DNA of 64,000 nucleotides. Source: Gemmatimonadales bacterium. GTDB lineage: Bacteria > Gemmatimonadota > Gemmatimonadetes > Gemmatimonadales > GWC2-71-9. Positions 4,917 to 63,503 of this stretch are shown here, in pieces. The number at the start of each line of letters is the position of its first letter. Position 1 is the first letter of the stretch. Both the position numbers and the translations under genes were made by a program. The notes beneath the pieces were generated by a model. The model was not told where the DNA came from. It did not search any database and was given only the letters and a program-made list of their open reading frames with translations. The stretch is from the NCBI GenBank assembly GCA_050733215.1, contig JBOHSN010000005.1:5322-69321 (forward strand). Reading direction: 5' to 3'.

Positions 4917-4929
4917 CAAGAGGCTGGCG

Positions 4930-5122
4930 GCTATCCGCTATCCGCTTGTTCACGCGGCCCTCCGATGTCCTTGACGTCGGGGGGCCGCGGTGCATCGTCC
5001 CGTGGATAGCGGATAGCGGATAGCGGATAGCGGATAGCGGATAGCGGATAGCGGATAGCGGATAGCGGATAGCGGATAGCGGATAGCGGATAGCGGATAG
5101 CGGATAGCGGATAGCGGATAGC
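4930..5122. repeat. tandem-repeat-armed palindrome A: 2 x GCTATCC, GC hairpin core, 17 x GGATAGC
   Basis: Left arm 4930-4943 (GCTATCC x2). Core 4954-4988 is GCGGCCCTCCGATG..CGTCGGGGGGCCGC, a 14-bp stem with G-U pairs. Right arm 5004-5122 is exactly 17 perfect GGATAGC heptamers (119 nt), ending 16 nt before the leuS ATG. Confidence 0.95.
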
Positions 5123-5137
5123 TGCTACATTTCCGCC

Positions 5138-7657
5138 ATGTCCAGCAGCCCGACTCCCGCCCGCTCCCGCCCGCTCCCGCCCGCTCCCGACCCGGGCGGT
5201 TACGATCCGACCGCCGTCGAAGCGAAATGGCAGGCCCGCTGGGCCGAGCAGCGCACCAACGAGCCCGATCTCGACGGCGCGGCGCGTCCGTTCTTCAACC
5301 TGATGATGTTCCCGTACCCCTCGGCTGAGGGCCTCCACGTCGGGAACATGTTCGCCTTCACCGGCAGCGACGCCTTCGGGCGGTTCCAGCGGCTGCGTGG
5401 TCATGACGTCTTCGAGCCGATCGGCTTCGACGCGTTCGGCATCCACAGCGAGAACTACGCGATCAAGGTCGGCATCAACCCGGCCGAGCTGATCCCGCGC
5501 AACATCGTGAACTTCCGGCGCCAGCTCGTCCGGATCGGCGGAATGTTCGACTGGTCGCACGCGCTCGCCACCACTGACCCCGCGTACTACAAGTGGACCC
5601 AGTGGATCTTCCTCCAGCTGCTGAAGGCGGGGAAGGCGTACCGAAAGGCTGCGGCGGTCAACTGGTGCCCCAGGGACCAGACCGTGCTCGCCAACGAGCA
5701 GGTCATCAACGGACGCTGCGAGCGCTGCGACACGCCGGTCGAGCAGCGGACGCTTGAGCAGTGGTTCTTCCGCATCACCGAGTACGCCGGCCGCCTGCTG
5801 GCCGACCTCGACGATCCGGCCAGGATGGACTGGTCCGACAGCACGGCCACCGCTCAGCGGAACTGGATCGGCCGGTCCGAAGGCGCCGAGATCGAGTTCA
5901 CGGTGGGCGGCGCGGAAGACCAGGCGGACGGCGCCTCCGACGAGCGGCGCATCCGCGTCTTCACCACCCGGCCGGACACGCTGTTCGGCGCCACGTTCAT
6001 GGTGCTCGCGCCCGAGCATCCGCTCCTGCTGGAGATCGTCACGCCCGAGCAACGCGCGGCCGTGCTGGCGTACCGTCAGGCCGCGCAGGCCAAGGACCTG
6101 GTCTCACGCAAGGTCGGCGACCGCGACAAGAGTGGCGTCTTCACCGGCGCGTTCGCGACCAACCCCGCCACCGGCGCGCTCATCCCCGTGTGGACCGCCG
6201 ACTACGTGCTCATGGAGTACGGCACCGGCGCCATCATGGCCGTGCCGGGCCACGACGAGCGCGACTTCGAGTTCGCGCGGAAGCACGGTCTCGAGATCGT
6301 TCGAGTGCTGGCGCCGGAGGGACAGCCGGCCAATGCGCCGCTCGAGGCCGCCGAGACCGAGACCGCCGGGTACCGGATGGTGAATTCGGGTCCGTTCAAC
6401 GGCCGGCCTGCGGATGCGGGCAAGCGCGACATCATCCGCTGGCTGGAGTCGTCAGGCCACGGCAAGGGTGTCGTGCAGTACCGGCTGCACGACTGGTGCA
6501 TCTCCCGCCAGCGGTACTGGGGCCCGCCGATCCCGATCATCTACTGCGAGCGCTGCGGCCCGGTGCCGGTCCCGGAGGAGGACCTGCCCGTACTGCTACC
6601 CGCGATCGACGACTTCCGCCCCGACGACACGGGTGTGTCGCCGCTCGCGCGGGTGAAGGAGTGGTACCACGTTGCCTGCCCGCAATGCGGCGGTCCCGCG
6701 CGCCGGGAGACCGACGTCTCCGACACGTTCCTCGACTCGGCGTGGTACTTCCTGCGCTACCCGAGCACGGACTTCGACGACCGGCCGTTCGATCCCGCGC
6801 GCACCCAGAAGTGGCTGCCGGTGGCCACGTATATCGGCGGCAACGAGCACGCCGTGCTCCACCTGCTCTACTCCCGCTTCATCACGATGGTGCTGCACGA
6901 TCTCGGCCATCTCGACTTCGACGAGCCGTACCGAACGTTTCGCGCGCACGGGCTGATCGTGAAGGACGGCGCGAAGATGTCCAAGTCGCGCGGCAACGTC
7001 GTCGTGCCCGACGACTACATCGCACGCTGGGGGGCCGACGCCTTCCGGATGTACCTGATGTTCCTGGGTCCGTTCCAGGAGGGCGGCGACTTCCGCGACG
7101 ACGGCCTCAACGGCCCGCGGCGGTTCCTCGACAAGCTGTGGGCGCTGGTGGGTCAGAGCCTGCGGGAGGATGCGGCGGGGGGTGAGATCCACCACCCCAT
7201 CCTGGTGAAGTGGCATCAGACCAGGAAGAAGGCGACGCACGACATCGAGCGGCTGAGCTACAACACCGCGATCGCCGCGCAGATGGAGCTGCTCAACACG
7301 ATGCGCGAGGCGAACTGCGCCGAGCGCGCCGTGGTCGAGGACATGGTGCTCATGGTAGCGCCGTTCGCGCCCCACTTCGCCGAGGAGTGCTGGGAGCGGC
7401 TCGGCCACGACGGCTCGATCTTCGACGGCCGCTGGCCCGAGTGGGACGAGGCGCTGACGGTGGAGGACACGGTCGAGATCGCGGTCCAGGTGAACGGCAA
7501 GACGCGGGGCAAGGTGACGGTGCGGCGGGACGCAAGCGAGGACGAGGCGGTGAAGGCGGCCAGCGCGGAACCGTCGATTCGGAAGTTCCTCGACGGGAAG
7601 ACGGTGAAGAAGGTGATCCTGGTTCCCAACCGGCTGCTCAATCTTGTGGTGCAGTGA
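5138..7657 (+). CDS. leuS: leucine--tRNA ligase
   Basis: 839-aa ORF. Motifs: YDPTAVEAKWQARW, HVGNMFAFTGSDAFGRFQRLRGHDV (HIGH-type motif), the editing domain, and GAKMSKSRGNVV (KMSKS). Confidence 0.97.
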   Translation: MSSSPTPARSRPLPPAPDPGGYDPTAVEAKWQARWAEQRTNEPDLDGAARPFFNLMMFPYPSAEGLHVGNMFAFTGSDAFGRFQRLRGHDVFEPIGFDAFGIHSENYAIKVGINPAELIPRNIVNFRRQLVRIGGMFDWSHALATTDPAYYKWTQWIFLQLLKAGKAYRKAAAVNWCPRDQTVLANEQVINGRCERCDTPVEQRTLEQWFFRITEYAGRLLADLDDPARMDWSDSTATAQRNWIGRSEGAEIEFTVGGAEDQADGASDERRIRVFTTRPDTLFGATFMVLAPEHPLLLEIVTPEQRAAVLAYRQAAQAKDLVSRKVGDRDKSGVFTGAFATNPATGALIPVWTADYVLMEYGTGAIMAVPGHDERDFEFARKHGLEIVRVLAPEGQPANAPLEAAETETAGYRMVNSGPFNGRPADAGKRDIIRWLESSGHGKGVVQYRLHDWCISRQRYWGPPIPIIYCERCGPVPVPEEDLPVLLPAIDDFRPDDTGVSPLARVKEWYHVACPQCGGPARRETDVSDTFLDSAWYFLRYPSTDFDDRPFDPARTQKWLPVATYIGGNEHAVLHLLYSRFITMVLHDLGHLDFDEPYRTFRAHGLIVKDGAKMSKSRGNVVVPDDYIARWGADAFRMYLMFLGPFQEGGDFRDDGLNGPRRFLDKLWALVGQSLREDAAGGEIHHPILVKWHQTRKKATHDIERLSYNTAIAAQMELLNTMREANCAERAVVEDMVLMVAPFAPHFAEECWERLGHDGSIFDGRWPEWDEALTVEDTVEIAVQVNGKTRGKVTVRRDASEDEAVKAASAEPSIRKFLDGKTVKKVILVPNRLLNLVVQ
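5151..5190. repeat. C-rich decamer array (CCGCTCCCGC x about 4) inside the leuS N-terminal extension
   Basis: cgactcccgc ccgctcccgc ccgctcccgc ccgctcccga. It encodes ..[15 protein letters not shown].., which lies before the conserved LeuRS core. Confidence 0.9.
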
Positions 7658-7749
7658 GCGGTAAGCGGTGAGCCGGCCAAACAAAGCGGGGGTCCGGTTC
7701 ACGCCGGATCTCCCCGCCTACCGCTCACCGCTCACCGCTTACCGCTCAC
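7654..7749. repeat. tandem-repeat-armed palindrome B: 3 x GTGAGCG, core, 5 x CGCTCAC; spans stop codon to stop codon
   Basis: Left arm 7654-7674 (gtgagcg gtaagcg gtgagcc) contains the leuS TGA (7655-7657). Imperfect GC core GCGGGGGTCCGG..GCCGGATCTCCCCGC. Right arm 7715-7749 (cgcctac cgctcac cgctcac cgcttac cgctcac) contains the stop (7746-7748) of the convergent oxidase gene. Confidence 0.95.
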
Positions 7750-8888: not shown

Positions 8889-8929
8889 ATGGACCTCCAA
8901 GGATGCCGCCAAGATACGTCGCGGGGGCC

Positions 8930-9063
8930 GCTATGCGCTATCCGCTATCCGCCCTGGCCGCGGTCATCCCAAAACTGCCGCGACCACCGAGCGACGGCGG
9001 TGCGCGCGAATAGCGGATAGCGGATAGCGGATAGCGGATAGCCGATAGCGGATAGCCGATAGC
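8930..9063. repeat. tandem-repeat-armed palindrome C: 3 x GCTATCC, core, 8 x GGATAGC
   Basis: Left arm 8930-8950 (gctatgc gctatcc gctatcc). 57-nt GC core. Right arm 9008-9063 (gaatagc, ggatagc x4, cgatagc, ggatagc, cgatagc) ends at the stop of the VIT gene (9064-9066). Same heptamer as element A. Confidence 0.95.
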
Positions 9064-10179
9064 TCACAACCACCTAACCATCCATTCCCCGAGCACATAG
9101 CCCACCCCCGCTACGCCCAGCCCGACCACGAACATGTCCATGCCGCTCCGGATCACCCCGCGGCCGGTGAACGCGCTCCGGGCGGCGCCGACCGCGAAGT
9201 GCGACAGCATCGCGAGCGCGAACGCGGTCCAGATCGCCCAGCGTCCGGTGCTCACCAGGAACGGCGCGACCGGGATGAACGCGCCGAGCGCGGTGGCCGT
9301 CCCCGTGACCCACGCCTCGCGCATCGGACTGCCCGGCTCTCCCGCGATACCCAGCTCCTCCCGCGCCTGCTCGGCCAGCGCGCGGTCCGGATCCGACATC
9401 ACCTGCTCGGCGAGCGCGTGCGCCTGCGGCGGCCGGAGCCCCTTCGCCTGGTAGACCAGGCTCAGCTCCTCCCGCTCGAGCTCCGGCATCAGGCGGATCT
9501 CCTCGCGCTCCATGGACAGCTCGTGGTCCAGCACCTCCCGCTCACTCTTCGCCGCCAGGTAGCCCGAGCTTCCCATCGAGAGCGCGTCGGCCACCATCCC
9601 CGCCACGCCTGCTACGAGCACGGCGTGGCTCGCCTCGCCGAAGCCGGCCTGGGCGCCGATCATACCGGCCACGAGTCCGAAATTGGCGGTGAGGCCATCG
9701 TTGAAGCCGTAGACCACATTCCGGAGGATGCCGCCCGCCCCGTGCCGGTGCCATGGCTCGGGGCCCGCGCCGGTGATGGTGGCGAGGCGGTCGGCGTGCT
9801 GCTTCGACTCCCGCGCCAGCTGGAGGGCAGTGGGTCCCGCCGCCCCGTCGGGCTGGTCCCGGTACAGGTCCAGGTAGCCCTTCACCTCCCGACCCTCTTC
9901 CCGGAGCAGGAGCGGCAGGAGGAGCCGCCCCCCGAACCGGCGGGCGACCCAGGCTCGGAACCGGGCCCCGCCCGACGGCACCGGTTCGGGCGCGGAGTGC
10001 CCCTGCTCGGCCAGGAGCGCGCGCCAGGCGGCGACGTGCCGGTCCTCGACCCCCGCGAGCTGCCGGTAGATCTCCCGCCGGCCGGGGTCGGGCTCGACGC
10101 CGGCGAGCTCCCGGTAGAGGAAGGCGGCGTCGGCCTCATCCTGGAGGTGGTGGAGCCAGGCCGCGGGGGCGGGCGTCAT
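9064..10179 (-). CDS. VIT1/CCC1-family Fe/Mn transporter with N-terminal ferritin-like (rubrerythrin-type) domain
   Basis: 371-aa ORF. N-terminal EADAAFLYRELAG..EDRHVAAW, then LRNVVYGFNDGLTANFGLVAGMIGA and C-terminal TM helices typical of the VIT family. Confidence 0.85.
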   Translation of the reverse strand: MTPAPAAWLHHLQDEADAAFLYRELAGVEPDPGRREIYRQLAGVEDRHVAAWRALLAEQGHSAPEPVPSGGARFRAWVARRFGGRLLLPLLLREEGREVKGYLDLYRDQPDGAAGPTALQLARESKQHADRLATITGAGPEPWHRHGAGGILRNVVYGFNDGLTANFGLVAGMIGAQAGFGEASHAVLVAGVAGMVADALSMGSSGYLAAKSEREVLDHELSMEREEIRLMPELEREELSLVYQAKGLRPPQAHALAEQVMSDPDRALAEQAREELGIAGEPGSPMREAWVTGTATALGAFIPVAPFLVSTGRWAIWTAFALAMLSHFAVGAARSAFTGRGVIRSGMDMFVVGLGVAGVGYVLGEWMVRWL

Positions 10180-10191
10180 GCCTCGAAGTAT

Positions 10192-10287
10192 AGAAGAGCA
10201 GAAGAGCGGAAGAGCAGAAGAGCCGCTGGACGGCCCCGTGGAAGCGGTTCCATCCGCTCTTCGGCTCTTCCGCTCTTCTGCTCTTCC
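10192..10287. repeat. tandem-repeat-armed palindrome D: 4 x AGAAGAGC, core, 4 x GCTCTTCN (octamers)
   Basis: Left arm 10192-10223 (agaagagc agaagagc ggaagagc agaagagc). 32-nt core containing GGAAGCGGTTCC. Right arm 10256-10287 (gctcttcg gctcttcc gctcttct gctcttcc). It lies between divergent starts (VIT 10179, ECF sigma 10332). Confidence 0.95.
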
Positions 10288-10331
10288 AGGATTTGCGACT
10301 CTCCGTCCGCCCCCCGCATCTTTAACCCGTC

Positions 10332-12703: not shown

Positions 12704-12704
12704 A

Positions 12705-12780
12705 GTGTGAGTGCGAGTGTGAGTGACGAGGGGCGCCTGAGTCACCCCTCACACTCACACTCACACTCACACTCACACTC
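12705..12780. repeat. tandem-repeat-armed palindrome E: about 3.5 x GTGTGA, core hairpin, 5 x ACACTC (hexamers); stop to stop
   Basis: gtgtga gtgcga gtgtga gtga (12705-12726). Core cGAGGGGcgcctgagtcaCCCCTC. Then acactc x5 (12751-12780). Flanked by the TGA at 12701-12703 and the convergent stop at 12782-12784. Confidence 0.95.
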
Positions 12781-16963: not shown

Positions 16964-17019
16964 GAGTGTGAGTGTGAGTGTCCTCGCACTCGCACTCGCA
17001 CTCGCACTCGCACTCACAG
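16964..17019. repeat. tandem-repeat-armed palindrome G: 3 x GAGTGT, CC, 5 x TCGCAC + TCACAG (hexamers); stop to stop
   Basis: gagtgt x3 (16964-16981), cc, tcgcac x5, tcacag (16984-17019). The arms pair through G-U (GAGTGT with GCACTC). Bounded by the TGA at 16960-16962 and the fabH TAG at 17020-17022. Confidence 0.95.
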
Positions 17020-18015: not shown

Positions 18016-18080
18016 GTAACTCCGGGGAAGGCGGTCCGTAGAGAGGACCGATATTGTCTCCCGGAACAGGAGTTTGGCAA

Positions 18081-21585: not shown

Positions 21586-23013
21586 TCAGCGCGGCGGGGT
21601 GGCGGGGGCGGCTCCCGAGGCGGGCGCGGCCTGCTGACGCATGCCTGGAAGGCCGCCGCCGCCGGTGACCCGGTTCATCCGCTCGCGCATCTCCTGCTGC
21701 GACTGAACCAGGCTCGCGCTCGGCAGCACCAGCACCGAATCTCCGGGCGCGAGCCCGTCGAGCACCTCGGTGTAGTCGAGGTCGGTGAGACCGGTGGTCA
21801 CCCAGACCGGCCGGGGCTCCGCGCTGTCCTTGACGAACACGATGTAGCGGGCGGTCTGGCCGGCCGGGCGGCCGGGCGGGCGGGCGGGCAGTGAGTCTCC
21901 GCTCCGCGCCGGCATCCGCTCGGTCCGCATCTCCCGCGTTGCGACGACCGGGGTATCGCGCCCGCCCGCCCGCCTGCCATCCTGTCCATTGGCCCGCCGG
22001 CCCGCCGGCCCCCCGGACGCCAGCTGCTCCTGCACCGCCCGGGCATCGAGCCCCAGCACCGCTGCCGCCGAGCCCGCGTCACGCTGGGTGCGGAGCGCGG
22101 CGTTCGGCACCGCGAGCACGTCGCGCCGCTCGCCCACATGGATCTCGATGTCGGCGTTCATTCCCGGGCGGAGCCGCCCGCCCTTATTGTCGATGCGGAT
22201 GCGTACGGGAAACGTGGTCACATTCTGGTTGACCACGGCCTGCGGCTCGATCTTGAGCACCGTGCCTTCGAACGGCCGGTTGGGATACGCGTCCACGGTC
22301 ACCGTGGCCTGCTGGCCCTTTGCCACCTTGCCGATGTCGGTCTCGTCCACCTGCGAGGTGACCTGCACCAGCTCGAGGTCGGCCATCTTGAGGAGGGTCG
22401 TGCCGCCGCCGACGTTCTGGGTGGCAGACGCAATCACCGAGCCGCGCTCGACACCCTTCTCGATGATGGTGCCGTCGATGGGCGCGCGGACGTCGGTGTC
22501 CTCCAGCTGGATCCGGGCGTTCTCCAGCGCCACCCTGGCCCGCACGACCGCAGCTTTCGCGTTCGCGTAGCTCAGGAGCACGTTCTCGCGGTCCTGCGCC
22601 GTGATGGCGCCGCTCCGGAACAGCTCTTCGGCGCGGTCCCGCTGCGCCTGGGTCGTGGTCTGCTGCGCGAGGGCCGCCTCGAGATCCGCCTGGGCCTGTG
22701 CAACCGCGTTCCGCAGCTGGCGTGGATCGATGCGAAGCAGCAGAGTTCCCCGCCGCACGGTCTGGCCGGTCTCGACCTTCACCTCCAGTACCTCGCCGGC
22801 GGCCCGGGTCTTCACTTCCACGGTGGTATCGGGCTGCACGGTGCCGCTCGCGTTGGCGGTGACCACGATGTCGCGCGGCCCGACGGCGACGGCCTGCCAG
22901 GGCGGGGGGATCGGCTGCTCCCGGCACCCCAGACCCAGGGCGAGCCAGGCCAGCGCTGCGAAGCGCCCGCTCCCGCCCGCTCCCGCCCTCTCCCGCCCTC
23001 GTCTCCTCCTCAC
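21586..23013 (-). CDS. efflux transporter periplasmic adaptor (HlyD/MacA family) lipoprotein
   Basis: 475-aa ORF. Its GTG start overlaps the ATPase stop (GTGA). Lipobox LALGLGC. Coiled-coil segment [27 protein letters not shown], then beta-barrel domains. Confidence 0.88.
22965..23000. repeat. C-rich decamer array inside the 5' end of the adaptor gene
   Basis: gcccgc tcccgcccgc tcccgccctc tcccgccctc. It encodes the n-region [13 protein letters not shown] of the signal peptide. Confidence 0.85.
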
Positions 23014-23811: not shown

Positions 23812-23962
23812 GCCGCGAATGAACGCGAACAACGCGAATACATCAAATAAAGCCGCGGATCGACGCAGATGAACGCTGATGTTGTTGGCGTCATCCGCGT
23901 TGATCAGCGTTCATCCGCGGCTGGATGTTGTTGATTCGCGTTCATTCGCGTTCATTCGCGGC
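23812..23962. repeat. nested tandem-repeat palindrome H built from CGCGAATGAA-type decamers
   Basis: Outer arms gccgcgaatgaacgcgaacaacgcgaatacatc (23812-23843) and gatgttgttgattcgcgttcattcgcgttcattcgcggc (23924-23962). Inner palindrome agccgcggat[cgacgca]gatgaacgctgat .. atcagcgttcatccgcggct. It shares ttgattcgcgttcattcgcggct with element I. Confidence 0.9.
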
Positions 23963-37269: not shown

Positions 37270-37391
37270 GTGAGCGGTGAGCGGTGAGCGGTGAGCGGTG
37301 AGCAGTAAGCAGTGAGCAGTAAGAAGGGGCTCCCGAGCCGTGTAGCCGGAGCCCCTTCCGCTCACCGTTTACCGCTCACCGCTCACCGCTA
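37270..37391. repeat. tandem-repeat-armed palindrome J: about 7.7 x GTGAGCG, perfect 10-bp core hairpin, about 4.8 x CCGCTCA; stop to stop
   Basis: Left arm 37270-37323 (gtgagcg x4, gtgagca, gtaagca, gtgagca, gtaag). Core AAGGGGCTCC..GGAGCCCCTT (37324-37357). Right arm 37358-37391 contains the TAG (37389-37391) of the convergent acyl-CoA dehydrogenase gene. The left arm begins 2 nt after the TGA at 37266-37268. Same unit as element B. Confidence 0.95.
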
Positions 37392-48504: not shown

Positions 48505-48542
48505 GAAAACGAAAGACCCCGGGGGAGCCAAACGTCCCGGGG
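48505..48542 (-). terminator. terminator-like hairpin plus U-tract immediately upstream of the metH ribosome-binding site
   Basis: Minus-strand RNA: CCCCGGG acguuuggcucc CCCGGGG UCUUUCGUUUUC, then AGGAGcgcccGUG. A 7-bp GC stem. It could terminate yggU transcripts or attenuate metH. Confidence 0.4.
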
Positions 48543-48622
48543 GAGGCGTTTAGCAGGTTGTTTAACGTGGCCGCAAGCTGCCGCAAATCGCCACGGATCG
48601 ATTGTCGGACTCCGCCGGTAAC

Positions 48623-48938: not shown

Positions 48939-49011
48939 AAGCCGCGAATTTGCGCGAATCAACGCGAACACAACCGCTCAATTCGCGTTGATTCGCGTTC
49001 ATTCGCGGCTT
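48939..49011. repeat. tandem-repeat-armed palindrome I: 3 x CGCGAATNNN decamers, loop, 3 x inverted decamers
   Basis: aagccgcgaat ttgcgcgaat caacgcgaac acaaccgctc aattcgcgtt gattcgcgtt cattcgcggctt. Same unit family as element H. It lies between the yggT stop (49035) and the yggU start (48928). Confidence 0.92.
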
Positions 49012-51703: not shown

Positions 51704-53083
51704 CTACACGCCGATCGCAATCCCTACCATCACCGCCACCGCGCCCAGCCCGAACAGCGCAGCCCAGAGCGGGACGACGAAACGGAGCCACCGGTCGAAC
51801 GGCACGCCGGCGGCGGCGAGTATCGCCATCAGGGCGCCGTTGGTGGGCGTGAGGATCTCGCAGAGGCCGGTCCCGTACTGGTAGGCGAGCACGGTCACCT
51901 GTCGCGAGAGCTGGAGCAGGTCGGACAGGGGAACGAGAATCGGGATGGTGAGCACGGCCTGGCCGCTCACGCTGGGTACCGGGATATGGATGAGCGTGTG
52001 CGCCGCCATCATCCCGATCGCCGAGGCGGCCAGCGGCAGGTTCTCGAGCGGGGTAAACAGCGCGTAGACCAGGGAATCGAGGATCCGGCCTTCATCGAGC
52101 GCGATGTAGATGGCCCGGGCGAATCCGACCAGCAGCGCCGCCCCCGCCATCGCCCGGAAGCCCGACACGAACGCCTCGGCGGTGCCCGACCAGCCGAATC
52201 CCGCCACGAGCCCAGCCGCGACGCCCATCACGAAGAAAACCGCCGACAGCTCGTTGAATCCCCAGCCGAGCTGGAGAATCCCGAGCACCAAGAGCCCGAA
52301 GGCGAGGAGCACCATCGCGAGGATGACTCCGTGTTTGGCGGAATCCACGGAGGTCACGGCTGCAGGTGCGGACGCCCCAGCCACCTCCTGGTCCCGCCCT
52401 CTCCCGCCCTCTCCCGCCTGCGTCTTCCTGGCGTAGCGCATCGTCCCCGCCACCCAGATCCCGAGCGCCAGCAGCAGGAACACGTTGCGGAACGTGCCGC
52501 CGGAGAGCGGCGGGAGCTGCGCGAGGTGCTGGGCGATGCCGACCTGAAATAGATTGATCGGACTGAAGGCCGCGCCGACCGCCGCCGCCCCCGCGCTCAT
52601 CGCGACCGCAGTGAGCGGGTCGAAGCCGAGCCGGCGGACCAGGAGCAGAAGCACGGGCACGAACGCGATGATCTCCTCCTGCATGTTGAGCCCGATGCCC
52701 CCGAGCGCGAACGCCCCGCTCGCGATCGGGATCACCAGTGCTTCCCGCCGCGCCAGCCGCGCAACCAGCCAGCCGACAGCGCCGCTCAGCGCTCCGGTCT
52801 GCTCTACGACCGCGAAGGCGCCGCCCACGAGGAACACGAGGAACACCACCGAGGCCGCGTCGGCAAGGCCCTTCGGCACCGCGACAGCGGCCGCGAAGGG
52901 TCCGACCGGCGCCTGCTCGACCTGGTGGAAGGTGCCCGGCACCACGACCGTACGGCCAAGCTCGGGGTCTTCCCGCCGATCGTACCGACCGGCCGGCACG
53001 ACCCAGCTCGCCGCCGAGGCGATGGCGAGACAGGCGAGGAGCAGGACGAGGGGATGAGGCAGCCGCAGACGGGGCGCCGTCAC
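51704..53083 (-). CDS. YfcC-family (DcuC/ArcD-like) anion or amino-acid transporter
   Basis: ORF 51704..53533; start set at GTG 53083, which overlaps the upstream small gene's stop (GTGA). About 12 TM helices. ..FLVGGAFAVVEQTGAL..NMQEEIIAFVP..IHIPVPSVSGQAVLTIPILVPL. Confidence 0.82.
   Translation of the reverse strand: MTAPRLRLPHPLVLLLACLAIASAASWVVPAGRYDRREDPELGRTVVVPGTFHQVEQAPVGPFAAAVAVPKGLADAASVVFLVFLVGGAFAVVEQTGALSGAVGWLVARLARREALVIPIASGAFALGGIGLNMQEEIIAFVPVLLLLVRRLGFDPLTAVAMSAGAAAVGAAFSPINLFQVGIAQHLAQLPPLSGGTFRNVFLLLALGIWVAGTMRYARKTQAGEGGRGRDQEVAGASAPAAVTSVDSAKHGVILAMVLLAFGLLVLGILQLGWGFNELSAVFFVMGVAAGLVAGFGWSGTAEAFVSGFRAMAGAALLVGFARAIYIALDEGRILDSLVYALFTPLENLPLAASAIGMMAAHTLIHIPVPSVSGQAVLTIPILVPLSDLLQLSRQVTVLAYQYGTGLCEILTPTNGALMAILAAAGVPFDRWLRFVVPLWAALFGLGAVAVMVGIAIGV
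52391..52418. repeat. C-rich decamer array (GTCCCGCCCT CTCCCGCCCT CTCCCGCC) inside the YfcC gene
   Basis: It encodes ..TQAGEGGRGRDQEV.. in a predicted central loop. Confidence 0.85.
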
Positions 53084-58248: not shown

Positions 58249-60228
58249 ATGCCGACCCCGAGCGCCACCCAGCGGCTGGCCGCACTCGACGCCGCGAACG
58301 GCCCCGACTGCGAAACAGTCATCCTCGCCGCGCTGGAGGACGATGCCCCGACGGTGCGCGAGCGTGCGGTCCGTCTCGCCGCCCGCTACGTGGAGCCGCA
58401 GGTGCTCGGCGCGATGGTCGCCGACGGGGTCAACGCGGCCCGGCGGAACGGCGCCCTCTCCGCCCTGGAGCGGCAGGGCCCCTACGCAGTGCCGCACCTG
58501 ACGGAGCTGCTGCACTCGACCGAGTCCGATGTCGTGATGTTCGCCCTCCAGGTGCTCGCCCGGATCGGCGACCCGGTGTCCACCAGCCGCATCCTTCCGC
58601 TGCTGGGACACGCCGACGCCAACGTGGCGCAGGCGGCGATCGAGGCGGTGGGCCGGATGCGCGCCGCCGACGCGGTTCCAGCCCTGCTCGATCTCCTGGA
58701 CCAGAACGTGTGGCTGCAGCTCGCCGCCGTGAACGCGCTCGGCGAGATCGGCGATCCGGCCGCGACGCTTCCGCTCCTCAAACTCGTGCCCGACAGTCTC
58801 GTGGCCGAGCAGGCGGTGCACGCGCTCCAGCGGATCACGGCGCCCGAGTCGCTGCCTCCGCTGCTCGATCTGCTGATCCGGGTTCGCGAGCGCCCGCTTC
58901 GGGACGCGATCCTCGAGGCATGCGGGGTGCTGCTCGAGCTGCATCCCGATCCGGGGGCGGTCGGGTGCAGGTTCACGGCCGGGCTCGATCAGGCGGCGCG
59001 CGCGGATGTCGTCGCGTTTCTCGGCGCTGCGCTGTCCGACGGCTCGGGGGCGGAGATGCCGTCCGAGGCTCCGGCACAGGCGGCCGGCGGCATCGCGCTC
59101 GTCGCCGGCCTCAGCGAGCTCTACGTGCCGGTGCTGCGCCGCGTTGCGGCGGGCTCGGCCTGGGCCGAGCCGCTCTGGGCGGCGCGGGCGCAGCCGAGCG
59201 ACGAGCAGGTGAGCGCGCTGCTGGGGCATGGCGACGCGCAGGTGCGGCGCGGCCTGCTCCTCGCCGGCCGCTTCGGACCCGCGGCGCTGCCGGGTCTCCT
59301 GGCGCGCCTGGACGATCCCGACGGCGAGGTCCGGGCGGCGGCGTGCCACGCGCTCGGCGCGCTGGGTGATGCCCGGGCGGCCGGCGTGCTGATCGAGCGG
59401 CTCAGAACGAGTGAGGGCGAGGAGCGGGACGAGGCGGCCGCGGCGCTGGGCCGGTTTCCCGCCGAGGCGCTGGGCGGCCTCGGGACCTGCCTGGATCCTC
59501 GCGCGGGTGATGCGGTCGCGATCGCCGCACTCGAGGCGGTGCGCCTGGCGCAGGCGCAGGCGTTCGAGCCCGAGGTGCTGGCGCTGACTCGCGCCCCCGC
59601 CGCCGACGTGCGGCTGGCGGCGCTGCGCGCCGCCGCGGCGCTGCCGGGATCGCGCACCGAGATGGTCCTCTTTCGCGCGCTCGCCGACCGGGAGGAGCGG
59701 GTGCAGATCGAGGCACTCGATCTCCTGGTGGACCGGGAAGGGGACAAGGCGGCGACCACGCTGATCGCGTTGCTTTCGGCGGCCGACTCGCTCCGGTTCC
59801 GGGTCATCCGGGCGCTGGGCCGGCTGCGCGTGCCGGCGGCGGCAACCAAACTCGAGTCGCTCTACGCCTCCGCGCCGCTGCATGAGCGGATCGAGATCGT
59901 CCGGGCGCTCGCCACCATCGCGCCGCCGGGCGTGACCGATTTTCTGCGCCTCCGCCTCCGCGCGCCGGAGCGGGAGCTGCGCCACGTCGCGGCGCTCGGG
60001 CTGGCCCGGGCGGCCGGCCCCGACGACCTCTCGACGTTGATCGCGATGGCCGCCGACGAGGACTGGACGCTCCGCAACCAGGCGGCTCAGGGGCTCGGCC
60101 GGCTGGGGCTCAGCGATGGCCGGACCACGCTTCTCACACTCACGCGGGACGTCGAGCCGGTGGTGGCGCGTACCGCCCGCCAGGCTCTGGCACTGATGGC
60201 CGAGCGGGCGGGATCCGCGGCGGCATGA
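58249..60228 (+). CDS. HEAT-repeat (PBS-lyase-type) protein embedded in the che operon
   Basis: 659-aa ORF. More than 12 repeats of the pattern ..VRxxAaxALGxiGDPxAvpxLlxLL.. (for example WLQLAAVNALGEIGDPAATLPLLKLV and VRAAACHALGALGDARAAGVLIERL). Confidence 0.88.
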   Translation: MPTPSATQRLAALDAANGPDCETVILAALEDDAPTVRERAVRLAARYVEPQVLGAMVADGVNAARRNGALSALERQGPYAVPHLTELLHSTESDVVMFALQVLARIGDPVSTSRILPLLGHADANVAQAAIEAVGRMRAADAVPALLDLLDQNVWLQLAAVNALGEIGDPAATLPLLKLVPDSLVAEQAVHALQRITAPESLPPLLDLLIRVRERPLRDAILEACGVLLELHPDPGAVGCRFTAGLDQAARADVVAFLGAALSDGSGAEMPSEAPAQAAGGIALVAGLSELYVPVLRRVAAGSAWAEPLWAARAQPSDEQVSALLGHGDAQVRRGLLLAGRFGPAALPGLLARLDDPDGEVRAAACHALGALGDARAAGVLIERLRTSEGEERDEAAAALGRFPAEALGGLGTCLDPRAGDAVAIAALEAVRLAQAQAFEPEVLALTRAPAADVRLAALRAAAALPGSRTEMVLFRALADREERVQIEALDLLVDREGDKAATTLIALLSAADSLRFRVIRALGRLRVPAAATKLESLYASAPLHERIEIVRALATIAPPGVTDFLRLRLRAPERELRHVAALGLARAAGPDDLSTLIAMAADEDWTLRNQAAQGLGRLGLSDGRTTLLTLTRDVEPVVARTARQALALMAERAGSAAA

Positions 60229-61058
60229 ACGCCGCCGACGAGGCGGAGTGCAAGCTCCTTTCCGATCTCGTCCAGGAACATTTCGGGCTCTCGTTCTCGG
60301 GCGTGCGCCGCGACATCCTCGCGTCGCGGGTTCGGCCGCGGGTGGCCGCGCTCCGCCTGGGCTCGCTGCTGGACTACTACCACTATCTCCGGTCCCATCC
60401 CCAGCGCGACGGCGAGCTCGATCAGCTCGCCCGCCATCTCACCAACAACGAGAGCTATTTCTTCCGCGAGCCGCATCATTTCGACATCGTGGTTCGGCAC
60501 GTGATTCCGCCGCTCATGCCCGAGCTGCGCCAGCGTCCGCTCCGGGTGCTGTGCGCCGGCTGCTCCTCGGGCGAAGAGCCGTACACGCTCTCGATCGCGC
60601 TGCACGATGCCGGGCTCGAGCTCCGGGGCGTCTCGTGGGAGATCGACGCCTGCGACCTCAACCGCGACCGCCTCGCGCGCGCGCGGGAGGCGTCCTATGA
60701 CGGGGGAGCGCTCCGCGCCTGCAGTGACGAGGCCCTCCGCCGCTGCTTCGAGGAGCGGGACGGCCGCCGCGTGCTCCGCGACCGCTTCCGGAAGGGCGTG
60801 CGGTTCTTCGAGGCCAATCTCGCCACCGCCGCGTCGGTGGGACGGCCGCCGTACGACGTGGTGCTCTGTCGCAACTTGCTGATCTACTTCGATGACGCCG
60901 GCTTCGACCGCACGGTGCGCGTGCTGGCGCGCGCCCTCGCTCCCGACGGCTATCTCCTGCTCGGCCACTCCGAGTCGCTGATTGACCGGAGCGACGAATT
61001 CAGCCCGGTCTGGCTGGAAGGCGCCATGGTCTACCGGAAGCGCGAGGGCCGGGCATGA
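60225..61058 (+). CDS. cheR: chemotaxis protein methyltransferase CheR
   Basis: 277-aa ORF with an ATGA overlap to the HEAT gene. TNNESYFFRE, LRVLCAGCSSGEEPYTLSI, VVLCRNLLIYFDD. Confidence 0.93.
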   Translation: MNAADEAECKLLSDLVQEHFGLSFSGVRRDILASRVRPRVAALRLGSLLDYYHYLRSHPQRDGELDQLARHLTNNESYFFREPHHFDIVVRHVIPPLMPELRQRPLRVLCAGCSSGEEPYTLSIALHDAGLELRGVSWEIDACDLNRDRLARAREASYDGGALRACSDEALRRCFEERDGRRVLRDRFRKGVRFFEANLATAASVGRPPYDVVLCRNLLIYFDDAGFDRTVRVLARALAPDGYLLLGHSESLIDRSDEFSPVWLEGAMVYRKREGRA

Positions 61059-62137
61059 TCAGGGTCTTCGTGGTGGACGATTCGGCCTTTGCACGGCGGG
61101 CGACGAGCAAGGTGCTCGCGGCCGACCCCGGGGTGCAGGTGGTGGGCGAGGCAGCCGGCGGCGCCGAGGCGCTGGCCCGCATTCCCGCCCTGTGTCCCGA
61201 CGTGGTCACGCTCGACCTCGACATGCCGGGCATGAACGGGCTCGCGGTGCTCCGCGCGCTCCTCGCGCGCGATCCCACGCTCCGCGTGGTGATGCTGTCC
61301 GCCCACACGCAGGAGGGCGCCGAGGCCACGCTGGAAGCGCTCGCGGCGGGCGCGGCGGACTTCCTCGACAAGTCGCGCTTCGGGCTGATGGACCTCGAGG
61401 GGTTCGGGCGCGAGCTCCGCGAGCGCGTGAAGGCGCTCGCAGCGGGCAGGCGGGCAGGCGGGCAGGCGGGCCGAGACACTGGGTCCGTGGTTCGCGCGGG
61501 GGCAAGGCGTTCACCCCTGCTCGCCTGCCCGCCTGCCCGCCTGCCCGCCCTGGACCTCTGCGTCCTCGGTGCGTCCACCGGCGGGCCGGCCGCGATCCAG
61601 CTCGTGCTCGAGCAGCTCCCGGCGGACTTCCCCGCGCCGATTGCGATCGTGCAGCATATGCCGCCGGGCTTCACCCGGCCGTTCGCCGTGCGGCTCGACG
61701 CGCACTGCCGGCTCAAGGTCAGCGAGGCGGAGGATGGGAAGCGGCTCGTGCCGGGGCAGGTCGTGATCGCCCCGGCGGGACGTCACCTCACCTTCACGCC
61801 CGGTCTCGGCGTCGTGCTCTCAACCGAGCCCGCCGCGGCCCGGCACATCCCGAGCGTCACCGTGATGATGCTGTCCGCCGCGCGGGTGCGGCCGGGCCGC
61901 GTCCTCGGCGTCCTGCTCACGGGGATGGGCGACGACGGTGCGGACGGGATGGTCGCGATCCGGGCCAGCGGCGGCGTCACGGTCGCGGAGAGCGAGGAGA
62001 GCTGCGTGGTCTACGGCATGCCGCGCGCGGCGGCCGAGCGGGGCGGGGCGGAGCGCCTGTTGCCGATCGGGGCTCTTGCCGAGTGGCTCGCGGCCGTCAG
62101 AGCAGCGTCCCCCGAAGCAGCGCCAGCGCCACGGTGA
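61055..62137 (+). CDS. cheB: chemotaxis response regulator protein-glutamate methylesterase CheB
   Basis: 360-aa ORF with an ATGA overlap to cheR. REC domain VFVVDDS..VTLDLDMPGMNG. Esterase GASTGGP, HMPPGFT, LTGMGDDGADG. Confidence 0.93.
   Translation: MIRVFVVDDSAFARRATSKVLAADPGVQVVGEAAGGAEALARIPALCPDVVTLDLDMPGMNGLAVLRALLARDPTLRVVMLSAHTQEGAEATLEALAAGAADFLDKSRFGLMDLEGFGRELRERVKALAAGRRAGGQAGRDTGSVVRAGARRSPLLACPPARLPALDLCVLGASTGGPAAIQLVLEQLPADFPAPIAIVQHMPPGFTRPFAVRLDAHCRLKVSEAEDGKRLVPGQVVIAPAGRHLTFTPGLGVVLSTEPAAARHIPSVTVMMLSAARVRPGRVLGVLLTGMGDDGADGMVAIRASGGVTVAESEESCVVYGMPRAAAERGGAERLLPIGALAEWLAAVRAASPEAAPAPR
61441..61549. repeat. tandem-repeat-armed palindrome inside the cheB linker: 4 x GGCGGGCA, 45-nt core, 4 x TGCCCGCC (octamers)
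   Basis: Left arm agcgggca ggcgggca ggcgggca ggcgggcc (61441-61472). Right arm tgctcgcc tgcccgcc tgcccgcc tgcccgcc (61518-61549). 32-nt arms with about 3 mismatches. Translated in frame as AAGRRAGGQAGRDTGSVVRAGARRSPLLACPPARLPALD. Confidence 0.95.
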
Positions 62138-63503
62138 AGTAGATCACCACGCCGGTGACGTCCACCAGCGTGGCGACGAACGGGGCGGAGGCGCTGGCCG
62201 GGTCGAAACCGAGCCGCCGCAGCAGGAACGGCAACATCGAGCCCGTCAGCGACCCGAACACCACCACGCCCACGAGCGAGATTCCGACGGTGAGCGCCAC
62301 CAGCGCGTAGTGCGGACCGTAGTCGTACCAGCCGAATTCCTGCCACAGCAGGATCCGGGTCACTCCGATGAGGCCAAGGATCGAGCCGAGAGCCAGCCCC
62401 GCGGGCAGCTCGCGGAAGGCGACGCGCCACCAGTCGCGGAGCGTTACCTCACGGAGCGCCATCGCTCGGATGATGAGCGACGTTGCCTGCGAACCCGAGT
62501 TGCCCCCGCTGCTGATGATGAGTGGGATGAAGAGCGCCAGCACTACGGCCTGACTGATCTCGTGCTCGAACCGGCCCATGGCGGTCGCGGTCAGCATCTC
62601 GCCGATGAACAGCGCGGCGAGCCAGCCGGCGCGCTTCCGGACCATCTTGGGCAGGCCGATGTGCATGTACGGCTCATCCAACGCTTCCATGCCGCCGAAC
62701 TTCTGGACGTCCTCGGTGGACTCGCGCACCAGCGCGTCGATCACGTCGTCCACCGTCACGATGCCGAGCACGTGGCCGCCATCGTCGAGGACGGGAATCG
62801 CGAGCAGGTCGTACTTCGAGATCAGCCGGGCGACCTCCTCGCGGTCAGTGAGCGGCTTGACCGTGACCGGCTTCCGGCTCTCGCCCACCTCGAGCACCCG
62901 CCGGTCGGGCTCGGCGAGCATGATGTCGCGGAGCGACACCACGCGAACCAGCCGCTGGTCCCGCGGATCGAGCACGTAGATCGCGTATACGGTTTCCTTC
63001 GCGGCCGCGACCTCGCGGATGTGGGTCTTCACCTGCTCGGCGGTCCAGGTGGACGGCACGCCCACGAACTCCGTGGTCATGATCCCGCCCGCGGTGTGAG
63101 GCGGAAACCGAAGGAGGAGGTTGAGGACTTCCCGCGTGGGAGCGGCGAGCAGGTGAATGAGCCGGGCGCGAGCCTCGTCGGTCAGCTCGCGGAAGAGCTC
63201 CACCTGCTGGTCGGCGGACAGCGCCTCGATCAGCGGCGTCGCGCGGCCGGTCTCCATGCCGCCCACCAGCTCGCCGCGCCGCTGGAGCTGCGGCTCGTCG
63301 AACACCTGTACCGCGCGGTGGAACGGCAGTGCGGTCGCCACCTTGATCGCCGCTTCCACCGGCAGCCCGTTCAGCCCCTCCGCGATGTCCGCCGGGAGAA
63401 ACTCGGCGCAGGCGGCCTCGAAGTCCTCCTCGTCGCCCGAGAGGAGGTACAGCAGTTCGGGGGAGAGTGGCGTCGGACCGGTCTGGGTGGTGGGAGCGGT
63501 CAT
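62097..63503 (-). CDS. mgtE: magnesium transporter MgtE
   Basis: ORF 62097..63686; start set at ATG 63503, which overlaps the cutA stop (ATGA). N-domain, two CBS domains, TM domain with SSGGNSGSQA. The 3' end overlaps the cheB 3' end by 41 nt (convergent). Confidence 0.92.
   Translation of the reverse strand: MTAPTTQTGPTPLSPELLYLLSGDEEDFEAACAEFLPADIAEGLNGLPVEAAIKVATALPFHRAVQVFDEPQLQRRGELVGGMETGRATPLIEALSADQQVELFRELTDEARARLIHLLAAPTREVLNLLLRFPPHTAGGIMTTEFVGVPSTWTAEQVKTHIREVAAAKETVYAIYVLDPRDQRLVRVVSLRDIMLAEPDRRVLEVGESRKPVTVKPLTDREEVARLISKYDLLAIPVLDDGGHVLGIVTVDDVIDALVRESTEDVQKFGGMEALDEPYMHIGLPKMVRKRAGWLAALFIGEMLTATAMGRFEHEISQAVVLALFIPLIISSGGNSGSQATSLIIRAMALREVTLRDWWRVAFRELPAGLALGSILGLIGVTRILLWQEFGWYDYGPHYALVALTVGISLVGVVVFGSLTGSMLPFLLRRLGFDPASASAPFVATLVDVTGVVIYFTVALALLRGTLL

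What the first reader, a model, noticed from the sequence alone, without database searches (positions are those of the whole stretch)
61441..61549. A complete repeat-armed palindrome is translated in frame as the CheB inter-domain linker
A 32-nt arm (4 x GGCGGGCA), a 45-nt core and a 32-nt inverted arm (4 x TGCCCGCC) lie wholly inside cheB, exactly between the receiver and methylesterase domains. They are read as AAGRRAGGQAGRDTGSVVRAGARRSPLLACPPARLPALD. This is the intergenic architecture, tolerated where a flexible linker accepts any sequence. There are two possible consequences. A roughly 30-bp GC stem in the mRNA could pause or uncouple translation or transcription of the two CheB domains. 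Unit slippage (8 nt, not a multiple of 3) would frameshift and yield a REC-only product, which is a potential phase switch of adaptation activity.
Basis: partly seen in the sequence, partly recalled or inferred. Interest (0 to 1): 0.7.

Follow-up and report, generated by a model that had tools for sequence, protein, structure and literature searches.

The report
Swappable repeat-armed hairpin inside cheB linker
A 109-base DNA hairpin whose arms are runs of an 8-base repeat is read in frame as the floppy linker of the chemotaxis enzyme CheB in a soil Gemmatimonadales bacterium. Close relatives carry different hairpins at the same spot, and one carries a repeat-count variant that breaks the gene, so a core signalling gene holds a fast-changing and possibly switchable cassette.

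Summary
Window 61441-61549 is a palindrome with 30 paired bases per arm (97% complementary), built from about four 8-nt units per arm around a 45-nt core. It is translated in frame as CheB residues 129-165, between the receiver and methylesterase domains, in a segment AlphaFold models as disordered.

It is not a simple 109-nt insertion: this linker is only 9-27 nt longer than hairpin-free linkers of the same clade. It belongs to a Gemmatimonadales-specific class of repeat-armed hairpins: 11 in 206 kb of this clade, 0 in 879 kb of other phyla.

- **Turnover.** Eight syntenic cheB alleles carry hairpins of five different 8-nt unit families. The family distribution disagrees with flank phylogeny: the window and L082 have 95% identical flanks but unrelated hairpins.
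- **Shared families.** The same unit families recur at other loci, including a second in-frame site in a macA-like gene.
- **Reading-frame filter.** Only stop-free units occur inside cheB.
- **Frameshift allele.** L172 has 3 left and 2 right units and is frameshifted. Removing one unit restores both frame and symmetry.

Best reading: a tolerated, rapidly exchanged hairpin repeat, filtered only for an open frame, with slippage frameshifts as a by-product. Selected phase switching or an RNA-level role remains unproven.

The parts
61055..62137 (+). cheB (360 aa): receiver domain, linker, methylesterase domain. It is the last gene of a cheY-cheA-cheW-mcp-HEAT-cheR-cheB operon.
   Evidence: ORF and translation. 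Pfam PF00072 at aa 4-107 and PF01339 at aa 170-344. Exact match to P0001, a Gemmatimonadales MAG CheB. Synteny in L081, L082 and L166.
61441..61472 (+). Left arm: four 8-nt units (AGCGGGCA GGCGGGCA GGCGGGCA GGCGGGCC), read as AGRRAGGQAGR.
61473..61517 (+). 45-nt core (loop) with small internal stems. It is 88-92% conserved with L081 only.
61518..61549 (+). Right arm: four inverted units (TGCTCGCC TGCCCGCC x3), read as LLACPPARLPA.
61064..61375 (+). Coding region of the receiver (REC) domain, aa 4-107. Helix alpha5 runs on to about aa 135.
61562..62086 (+). Coding region of the CheB methylesterase domain, aa 170-344.
60225..61058 (+). cheR, which overlaps the cheB start by 4 nt.
62097..63503 (-). 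Convergent mgtE. Its 3' end overlaps the cheB 3' end by 41 nt, leaving no intergenic room for a terminator after cheB.
21847..22016 (-). Second in-frame G-rich palindrome (GGCGGGC-type, decayed), inside a macA-like adaptor gene (21586-23013). It is read as [20 protein letters not shown]...[12 protein letters not shown].
4923..5122 (.). Class member: GCTATCC x2.4, core, GGATAGC x17. Intergenic, ending 16 nt before the leuS ATG.
7654..7749 (.). Class member with GTGAGCG arms (20 nt, 100% complementary), between convergent leuS and a multicopper oxidase gene.
8928..9063 (.). Class member with CCGCTAT / GCGGATA arms. Intergenic.
10165..10314 (.). Class member with AGAAGAGC arms (31 nt, 97% complementary), in a divergent intergenic region. 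This is the unit family found in the cheB linker of L165.
12704..12780 (.). Class member with GAGTGT / CTCACA arms, between convergent genes.
16964..17015 (.). Class member with GAGTGT / CTCGCA arms, between convergent genes.
23812..23962 (.). Class member with CGCGAATnAA arms. Intergenic.
37270..37390 (.). Class member with GTGAGCG arms (31 nt, 94% complementary), directly after the stop codon of an acyl-CoA dehydrogenase gene.
48939..49011 (.). Class member with CGCGAATnAA arms (30 nt, 90% complementary), after the stop of a YGGT gene and upstream of the metH SAM riboswitch.

Best explanation
The cheB palindrome is an in-frame copy of a Gemmatimonadales-specific class of dispersed hairpin repeats. 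In this class the conserved part is a short arm unit (6-10 nt, repeated in tandem and mirrored), and the core differs from copy to copy. It survives inside cheB because the REC-methylesterase linker is disordered and accepts almost any stop-free sequence.

The cassette changes in three ways:
1. Replication slippage changes unit number.
2. Copying from one arm to the other (intramolecular template switching) keeps the arms mirror images.
3. The whole cassette is replaced between lineages by recombination, with other alleles or with other genomic copies of the same unit families.

Selection acts only to keep the frame open and the linker at a workable length. Frameshifted, catalytically dead alleles arise as a by-product of 8-nt slippage.

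What is shown: the anatomy, the in-frame position, the disorder, lineage restriction, allele turnover, family sharing, the stop-codon filter, and one frameshift allele.

What is inferred: the slippage, template-switch and recombination mechanisms, and the absence of a dedicated function.
For: 1. **Class membership.** There are 11 periodic-arm palindromes in 206 kb of Gemmatimonadales loci and 0 in 879 kb of cheB loci from other phyla. All nine unit families are absent from the other phyla, and eight of the nine occur at two or more non-orthologous loci. One case is L166, where the cheB linker and a trx/dcuC intergenic hairpin share RGACGGYC units but have different cores.
2. **Tolerance.** pLDDT is below 50 at aa 133-156, with no secondary structure at 136-167. 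Ortholog linkers are hypervariable.
3. **Turnover at one site.**
   - Eight syntenic alleles carry five arm families: GGCGGGCA, GGATGAGC, AGAAGAGC, RGACGGTC and GATGGAC.
   - Six of them fold with z of -4.5 or lower, whereas none of 159 control linkers is below -3.
   - Family distribution disagrees with flank identity:
     - window and L082 are 95.3% identical in flanks but carry different families;
     - L081 and L165 are 93.2% identical but carry different families;
     - window and L081 are 85% identical and carry the same family;
     - L082 and L164 are 86% identical and carry the same family.
   - Across 12.9 kb of window-L082 alignment (93.2% identity), the linker is one of only two blocks below 60% identity.
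4. **Mirror copying.** The L164 arms are 37/37 complementary, including the order of unit variants.
5. **Open-frame filter.**
   - The cheB families are stop-free in all frames on both strands.
   - GGATGAGC is the exception. The unit that would be read GGA-TGA is GGAGGAGC in both L082 and L164, and in L164 that change is mirrored at the paired position.
   - The intergenic-only families GGATAGC, GTGAGCG and CGCGAATnAA contain stops in all frames.
6. **Slippage.** L172 has 3 left and 2 right units and a frameshift. Deleting one unit restores both frame and arm symmetry.
7. **A second in-frame site.** The macA-like gene shows the same behaviour, and peptides in its orthologs point to the same families.
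8. **Known general mechanism.** Template switching homogenises inverted-repeat arms and can create and maintain hairpins (PMC8794818, PMC8604942).
Against: - No enzyme or mobility mechanism was identified. No target-site duplication is visible. No transposase was seen among the 23 ORFs scanned.
- Stable hairpins persist through sequence replacement, which is also what selection on structure would produce.
- Between the window and L081, one paired position changed on both sides but to a G-G mismatch, so there is no clean covariation signal either way.
- The frameshift allele is a single 1.9-kb metagenome contig. A 1-nt assembly error would also explain its frame.
- All sequences come from MAGs or metagenome contigs.
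Confidence: 0.55

Rival explanations
1. Selected contingency locus. The 8-nt repeats are kept in cheB because slippage switches the methylesterase ON and OFF heritably. This gives subpopulations with different chemotactic adaptation.
For: - The unit length is not a multiple of 3, and every single-unit change shifts the frame.
- All five cheB arm families have 8-nt units, although intergenic copies use 6, 7, 8 or 10 nt.
- L172 is a frameshifted allele with an otherwise intact catalytic domain. One unit deletion repairs it.
- The further short REC products P0121 and P0123 diverge after the left-arm peptide.
Against: - There are only about four units per arm, few for high-rate slippage (own knowledge of contingency loci).
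- About 60 database orthologs are intact, against one confirmed frameshift.
- Intact orthologs without repeats exist (L168-L170, L084).
- A palindrome is not needed for a switch.
- The same cassettes sit in macA and between genes.
- The OFF product would carry a nonsense tail of 110-230 aa.
Confidence: 0.2
2. RNA-level regulatory hairpin. Selection keeps a long GC stem in the cheB mRNA. It would act as an RNase III or processing site, as a 3'-end stabiliser of the upstream operon transcript, or as a translational brake that sets the CheB dose. Sequence is free to change as long as the structure is kept.
For: - Structure is kept while sequence is replaced: six alleles with z of -4.5 or lower across four of the five arm families.
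- The stop-avoiding unit change in L164 is matched at the paired position.
- cheB overlaps convergent mgtE by 41 nt, so the operon has no downstream space for a hairpin.
- Intergenic class members sit directly after stop codons, like 3'-end hairpins.
Against: - L167 (z = -0.7), L165 (z = -2.3) and L083 show decay.
- L168-L170 and L084 lack a significant hairpin, yet keep the same gene order and the same cheB/mgtE overlap.
- There is no U-tract terminator and no Rfam family.
- Arm-to-arm templated copying explains the mirrored changes without selection.
Confidence: 0.13
3. A single ancient MITE- or RPE-like insertion, inherited vertically and simply drifting in sequence.
For: - It is an in-frame palindromic element in a permissive loop, as with Rickettsia palindromic elements.
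- GGCGGGCA-type arms occur in lineages as far apart as 72% flank identity (window, L081, L083, L172). That fits an old origin for this family.
Against: - Alleles with 93-95% identical flanks carry unrelated arm families that differ at 5 of 8 unit positions.
- Family distribution is discordant with flank phylogeny.
- The arms stay 94-100% complementary within an allele while the alleles differ from each other.
- Net length gain is only 9-27 nt.
Confidence: 0.07
4. Chance low-complexity GC-rich sequence, or an assembly artefact.
For: The genome is 70% GC, and shuffled sequences also fold strongly. All data are MAG or metagenome assemblies.
Against: - No shuffle reaches the observed pattern count or the observed fold energy.
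- The hairpin recurs in frame at the same site in nine independent assemblies.
- No control linker among 159 reaches z below -3.
Confidence: 0.02

Closest known systems
Rickettsia palindromic elements (RPEs)
   Same: Hairpin-forming repeats of about 100-150 bp, inserted in frame into unrelated protein-coding genes at positions compatible with the fold and translated as extra peptide (PMC10969869). Here cheB and a macA-like gene are both affected.
   Different: - RPE families are defined by a conserved full-length sequence and peptide. Here only the short arm unit is shared and the cores differ.
- The arms here are tandem repeats.
- Alleles at one site are swapped between close relatives.
- The host is Gemmatimonadales, not Rickettsia.
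REP doublets (REPINs / BIMEs) mobilised by RAYT transposases
   Same: Dispersed families in which two inverted copies of a conserved short sequence flank a less conserved spacer and form a hairpin. They lie mostly just outside genes, often after stop codons (PMC3733652; own knowledge).
   Different: - No GTAG/CGTC-tagged REP sequence is present.
- The arms are tandem arrays of 6-10-nt units.
- Some copies lie inside ORFs.
- No RAYT gene was identified.
Simple-sequence-repeat contingency loci (phase-variable genes of Haemophilus, Neisseria and Campylobacter; own knowledge)
   Same: An in-ORF tandem repeat whose unit is not a multiple of 3, where a change in unit number toggles the frame. One natural out-of-frame allele was found.
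   Different: - Only about four units per array.
- Two inverted arrays form a hairpin.
- No evidence of reversible high-rate switching.
- The host is an environmental soil lineage and the gene is a cytoplasmic signalling gene, not a surface gene.
Hairpins created and maintained by replication template switching
   Same: Arm homogenisation and long perfect stems arising without point-by-point compensatory substitution (PMC8794818, PMC8604942). This matches the exact mirror order of unit variants in L164.
   Different: The published cases are single events in rRNA or yeast genes. They are not a dispersed family with tandem-repeat arms and allele swapping.
Foldback (FB) transposons of eukaryotes (own knowledge; one search returned only eukaryotic examples)
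   Same: Long inverted arms built from tandem subrepeats around a variable central loop.
   Different: They are kilobase-scale, eukaryotic and transposase-associated. No homology or mobility evidence was found here. The resemblance is in architecture only.

Membership tests
CheB (response-regulator methylesterase) | N-terminal receiver domain plus C-terminal CheB methylesterase domain, in a che operon next to cheR. | tested here: met
   PF00072 E = 1.3e-22 and PF01339 E = 8.2e-62. PDB 6ymz and 1a2o match at E about 1e-64. cheR lies upstream.
Rickettsia palindromic elements (RPE) | Palindromic element of about 100-150 bp that can form a stable hairpin. | tested here: met
   109 nt, -94.7 kcal/mol, z = -5.1.
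Rickettsia palindromic elements (RPE) | Inserted in frame in an ORF, outside the folded domains. | tested here: met
   Codons 129-165, between the Pfam domains. pLDDT below 50 at aa 133-156.
Rickettsia palindromic elements (RPE) | Copies share a conserved full-length sequence and encoded peptide. | tested here: not met
   Copies share only the 6-10-nt unit. The cores are unrelated, and five different arm families occur at the same cheB site.
REP / REPIN (RAYT-associated) | Conserved 20-40-nt imperfect palindrome with a GTAG or CGTC head. | tested here: not met
   By reading the sequence, the cheB arms are pure 8-nt tandem units and no GTAG/CGTC-tagged REP is present.
REP / REPIN (RAYT-associated) | A cognate RAYT (Y1 transposase) gene in the genome. 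| not tested
   Only 23 window ORFs were scanned against Pfam and none is a transposase. The whole genome is not available.
MITE | Terminal inverted repeats flanked by a target-site duplication. | tested here: not met
   Inverted arms are present. The flanks ...GCTCGCA | GCGGGC...GCCCGCC | CTGGAC show no direct duplication. There is no clean empty site, because hairpin-free alleles differ throughout the linker.
SSR contingency (phase-variable) locus | Tandem repeat inside the ORF with a unit length that is not a multiple of 3. | tested here: met
   8-nt unit, 3.8 and 4.2 copies. Single-unit changes shift the frame.
SSR contingency (phase-variable) locus | Natural variation in repeat number that toggles the reading frame. 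| tested here: inconclusive
   One allele, L172, has 3 versus 2 units and is out of frame, and one unit deletion repairs it. It is a single short metagenome contig, so an assembly error is not excluded.
SSR contingency (phase-variable) locus | High-frequency reversible switching within a clone. | not testable with these tools
   Needs reads or cultures.
Intrinsic (rho-independent) terminator | GC-rich stem followed by a U-tract. | tested here: not met
   No terminator-like sites in 60900-62300. The sequence after the stem is CCTGGACCTCTGCG.
Any curated RNA family (Rfam 15) | Match at the gathering score. | tested here: not met
   The only hit in the window is SAM_alpha at 48531-48604.

The most novel reading that the evidence does not exclude
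Gemmatimonadales have an unrecognised copy-and-paste or conversion system. It writes a small repertoire of short unit families as mirrored tandem arrays at hairpin sites across the genome. Where such a cassette lands in a disordered protein segment (the CheB linker, a macA-like adaptor), it becomes an in-frame, strain-variable and slippage-prone cassette. That cassette gives heritable ON/OFF switching of chemotactic adaptation.
Probability: 0.2. Interest if true: 0.8.

Novelty: new variant of a known kind. Interest (0 to 1): 0.68.

Why it matters
If this holds, it adds a new kind of bacterial dispersed repeat, defined by a short mirrored tandem unit rather than by a conserved element sequence. 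It also shows that such repeats can live inside essential-pathway genes by occupying disordered linkers.

It gives a natural example of a protein segment whose sequence is dictated by DNA-level hairpin dynamics rather than by protein function.

It also marks cheB, and a macA-like gene, as candidate phase-variable loci in an environmental phylum where contingency loci have not been described, as far as six full-text searches could show.

In practice these cassettes are strain markers, likely assembly breakpoints, and a source of spurious pseudogene calls in Gemmatimonadales MAGs.

Tried and rejected
1. **Collection scans.** They returned only distant CheBs (at most 61% identity). Those loci were reused as negative controls.
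2. **Simple 109-nt insertion.** Rejected. The linker is only 9-27 nt longer than hairpin-free linkers of the clade and about 11 aa longer than 6ymz.
3. **Gradual in-place drift of the arms.** Rejected. Flanks that are 93-95% identical carry unrelated units.
4. **Independent origin from random seeds at each locus.** Rejected. The same unit families recur at non-orthologous loci and in different genomes, and never in other phyla.
5. **Hairpin universal in the orthogroup.** Not supported. L168-L170 and L084 have z between -0.9 and -2.3, within the control range. Only L168 shows a suggestive G-left/C-right skew (0.82, exceeded by 0.6% of controls).
6. **Clean compensatory-substitution test.** Not obtained. 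Between the window and L081, one pair changed on both sides to G-G, plus two G-U wobbles.
7. **Terminator, promoter and Rfam scans.** Nothing at the site.
8. **Literature.** Six full-text searches found no description of such repeats in Gemmatimonadetes or other bacteria.
9. **L171.** Here REC plus the left arm joins directly to purM. I did not use it as evidence, because a chimeric assembly across the repeat is as likely as a real rearrangement.
10. **Formal covariation count on an alignment.** Not attempted. The alleles cannot be aligned except by their own structures, which would be circular.
Full report
**1. The observation**

Window 61441-61549 reads AGCGGGCA GGCGGGCA GGCGGGCA GGCGGGCC, then a 45-nt core, then TGCTCGCC TGCCCGCC TGCCCGCC TGCCCGCC. 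The repeat finder reports arms 61442-61471 and 61519-61548: 30 nt, 97% complementary, 47 nt apart. TRF reports two period-8 arrays of 3.8 and 4.2 copies.

Two adjacent units with up to 2 mismatches occur 11 times in the window against 0.44 expected, and no shuffle reached 11. The segment folds at -94.7 kcal/mol as RNA (z = -5.1) and -54.4 kcal/mol as DNA (z = -5.4). No shuffle folds as well.

The element lies inside ORF 61055-62137(+). This ORF is a CheB: Response_reg at aa 4-107 and CheB_methylest at aa 170-344, with PDB matches 6ymz and 1a2o at E about 1e-64.

**2. Organism and context**

The CheB is identical to a protein of a Gemmatimonadales MAG (P0001). The window is 70% GC.

cheB is the last gene of a che operon. 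Its 3' end overlaps convergent mgtE by 41 nt.

The window holds at least nine other palindromes whose arms are tandem repeats of other short units: GGATAGC, GTGAGCG, AGAAGAGC, GAGTGT and CGCGAATnAA. Nearly all lie between genes. Many sit directly after a stop codon or between convergent genes.

A scan for palindromes with periodic arms finds 11 in 206 kb of Gemmatimonadales loci. It finds none in 879 kb of cheB loci from other phyla. None of the nine unit families occurs in those other phyla. No Rfam family matches.

**3. The linker**

AlphaFold2 with 46 orthologs gives confident domains. pLDDT is below 50 at aa 133-156, with no secondary structure at aa 136-167. Ortholog linkers are hypervariable.

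The palindrome is not a simple addition. Measured between fixed anchor residues:

| Group | Linker length |
|---|---|
| Window | 129 nt |
| Hairpin-bearing relatives | 126-150 nt |
| Clade relatives without a significant hairpin | 102-120 nt |
| 159 CheBs of other phyla | median 114 nt |

Against 6ymz the excess is about 11 residues. The palindrome-encoded peptide therefore largely is the linker.

**4. The main result: the same site, different hairpins**

I retrieved the DNA of syntenic cheB alleles (cheR-cheB-mgtE-cutA) from independent assemblies. Eight alleles carry a repeat-armed hairpin in the linker, with five different 8-nt unit families:

| Allele(s) | Arm unit family |
|---|---|
| Window, L081, L083 | GGCGGGCA |
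| L082, L164 | GGATGAGC / GGAGGAGC |
| L165 | AGAAGAGC |
| L166 | RGACGGTC |
| L167 | GATGGAC |

Six of the eight fold with z between -4.5 and -10.3. None of 159 control linkers falls below -3: the mean is -0.23 and the minimum -2.97.

The family does not follow the phylogeny of the flanks:
- Window and L082 are 95.3% identical in flanks but carry GGCGGGCA and GGATGAGC.
- L081 and L165 are 93.2% identical but carry GGCGGGCA and AGAAGAGC.
- Window and L081 (85%), L082 and L164 (86%), and window and L172 (72%) each share a family.

Over 12.9 kb of collinear window-L082 alignment (93.2% identity), only two blocks fall below 60% identity. One is a 39-nt hairpin indel and the other is the cheB linker. 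L082 keeps a GGCGGGCAGG remnant at its left edge. This suggests a GGCGGGCA cassette was overwritten there.

Gradual drift cannot explain this pattern. Replacement of the cassette by recombination can.

**5. Where the cassettes come from**

Eight of the nine unit families recur at non-orthologous loci, and six recur in different genomes.

In L166 the cheB linker and an intergenic hairpin 9 kb away, between trx and dcuC, share RGACGGYC units. Their cores are unrelated. AGAAGAGC is in the L165 cheB linker and in the window at 10165-10314.

At the SBP-aldehyde dehydrogenase spacer, L082 and L165 carry a one-sided (GGATAGC)x9 array. L081 carries the mirrored form with a core. L166, L169 and L170 carry nothing.

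A macA-like adaptor gene in the window (21586-23013, minus strand) contains a second in-frame G-rich palindrome at 21847-22016. It lies in a segment that does not align to MacA or AcrA structures. In its orthologs that segment is hypervariable. Their peptides, such as DGWSDGRM...PSDHPSIRP and KSRRAEEP...SSAPRLFRS, look like translations of the GATGGAC and AGAAGAGC families. That last point rests on protein sequence only.

So this is a dispersed repeat class. The arm unit is the conserved part and the core is not.

**6. Signs of selection and of mechanism**

Because an 8-nt unit passes through all three frames, an in-ORF array must be stop-free in every frame on both strands.

The families GGCGGGCA, AGAAGAGC, GGACGGTC and GATGGACC meet this condition. 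The intergenic-only families GGATAGC, GTGAGCG and CGCGAATnAA do not.

GGATGAGC contains TGA. In both L082 and L164, the one unit that would be read GGA-TGA is GGAGGAGC instead. In L164 the mirrored unit GCTCCTCC sits at the paired position. The L164 arms are 37/37 complementary, including the order of unit variants.

This shows a filter for an open frame. It also shows a process that copies one arm from the other. Template switching between inverted repeats is a documented process of that kind (PMC8794818, PMC8604942).

**7. The phase-switch idea**

In simulation:
- Adding one unit to either arm gives a 239-aa product.
- Removing one unit gives a 358-aa out-of-frame product.
- Opposite changes in the two arms keep the frame.

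A search with the REC part alone found short products.

L172 is a cheR-cheB contig. Its GGCGGGCA hairpin has three left units and two right units. REC is in frame 0, and an otherwise intact catalytic domain is in frame 2. Deleting one left unit restores both the frame and the arm symmetry. This is what unit slippage predicts. However, it is one 1.9-kb metagenome contig, and a 1-nt error would also fix the frame.

L171 joins REC plus the left arm directly to purM. That is either a rearrangement or a chimeric assembly at the repeat.

About 60 database orthologs are intact. Frameshift alleles therefore exist or are at least plausible. Selected, reversible switching has not been shown.

**8. RNA-level function**

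There is no U-tract terminator or promoter at the site. Relatives with decayed hairpins (L167 at z = -0.7, L165 at z = -2.3) or none (L168-L170, L084) keep the same operon layout and the same cheB/mgtE overlap. The stem is therefore not required for cheB. A modulatory role cannot be excluded.

**9. Verdict**

The finding is real and more interesting than a one-off. The cheB linker, like a segment of a macA-like gene, is an in-frame landing or exchange site for a lineage-specific class of repeat-armed hairpins.

My best explanation (0.55) is a tolerated, fast-exchanging passenger. It is shaped by slippage, arm-to-arm copying and recombination, and filtered only for an open frame and a workable linker length.

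The rivals are a selected contingency switch (0.2), an RNA-level regulatory stem (0.13), and a single old insertion that drifts (0.07).

The closest known systems are Rickettsia palindromic elements (in-frame palindromes; PMC10969869), REPIN/BIME doublets, and SSR contingency loci. The element fails defining tests for membership in each of them: no conserved element sequence, no REP tag, no target duplication, and no demonstrated switching. I therefore rate it a new variant of a known kind.

All evidence comes from MAG and metagenome assemblies. Read-level and experimental tests are listed under next steps.

Noticed in passing
window 21586-23013 (-), segment 21847-22016: A macA-like periplasmic adaptor, in a macA/macB/ABC cluster, carries a second in-frame G-rich palindrome with a 16-bp perfect stem. 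The peptide reads [20 protein letters not shown]...[12 protein letters not shown]. It lies in a segment of about 60 aa that does not align to MacA or AcrA structures. Orthologs are hypervariable there, with peptides that look like other unit families.
   Followed up: partly
window 5004-5122 and 5148-5194: (GGATAGC)x17 ends 16 nt before the leuS ATG. A 10-nt repeat (GCCCGCTCCC x4.5) is translated within the N-terminal extension of LeuS, upstream of the conserved YDP motif. These are possible expression or frame-variable sites in an essential gene.
   Followed up: partly
L081 14747-14850; L082 about 18001-18063; L165 about 5794-5856: At the orthologous spacer between the SBP and aldehyde dehydrogenase genes, two genomes have a one-sided (GGATAGC)x9 array just upstream of the ATG. 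One genome has the mirrored palindromic form with a core, and three have nothing. This shows that one-sided arrays and palindromes interconvert.
   Followed up: partly
L166 1094-1218: A hairpin with the same RGACGGYC units as that genome's cheB linker lies between convergent trx and dcuC. Its left arm overlaps the last codons of trx.
   Followed up: partly
L171 1774-1850: The contig runs cheR, then the REC part of cheB, then the left GGCGGGCA arm, then directly into purM with no methylesterase domain. It is either a rearrangement at the palindrome or a chimeric assembly across the repeat.
   Followed up: partly
window 48531-48604 (-): An Rfam SAM_alpha riboswitch (49 bits against a gathering score of 36) lies upstream of a 1252-aa B12-dependent methionine synthase (metH). 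The family is described as alphaproteobacterial, but this is a Gemmatimonadales genome. A CGCGAATnAA-armed hairpin sits just upstream at 48939-49011.
   Followed up: partly
window about 51696, against L082 600-640: The only other strongly divergent block in 12.9 kb between the window and L082 is a 39-nt imperfect hairpin that L082 has and the window lacks.
   Followed up: no
window 62097-62137: cheB and convergent mgtE overlap by 41 nt at their 3' ends. The overlap is conserved in all relatives examined, so the che operon has no intergenic terminator region.
   Followed up: no
window 36611-36664: A 12-nt tandem repeat (CGGCCGGCAGTG x4.5, 97% matches) lies near the 5' end of a D-Ala-D-Ala carboxypeptidase (S13) ORF on the minus strand. 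Whether it is translated was not checked.
   Followed up: no
window 46518-46556, 52392-52418, 22964-22998, 45756-45787: Several 10-nt C-rich tandem repeats (CTCCCGCCCT-like) occur without an inverted partner. At least one lies inside the metH ORF range. They may be a further unit family.
   Followed up: no
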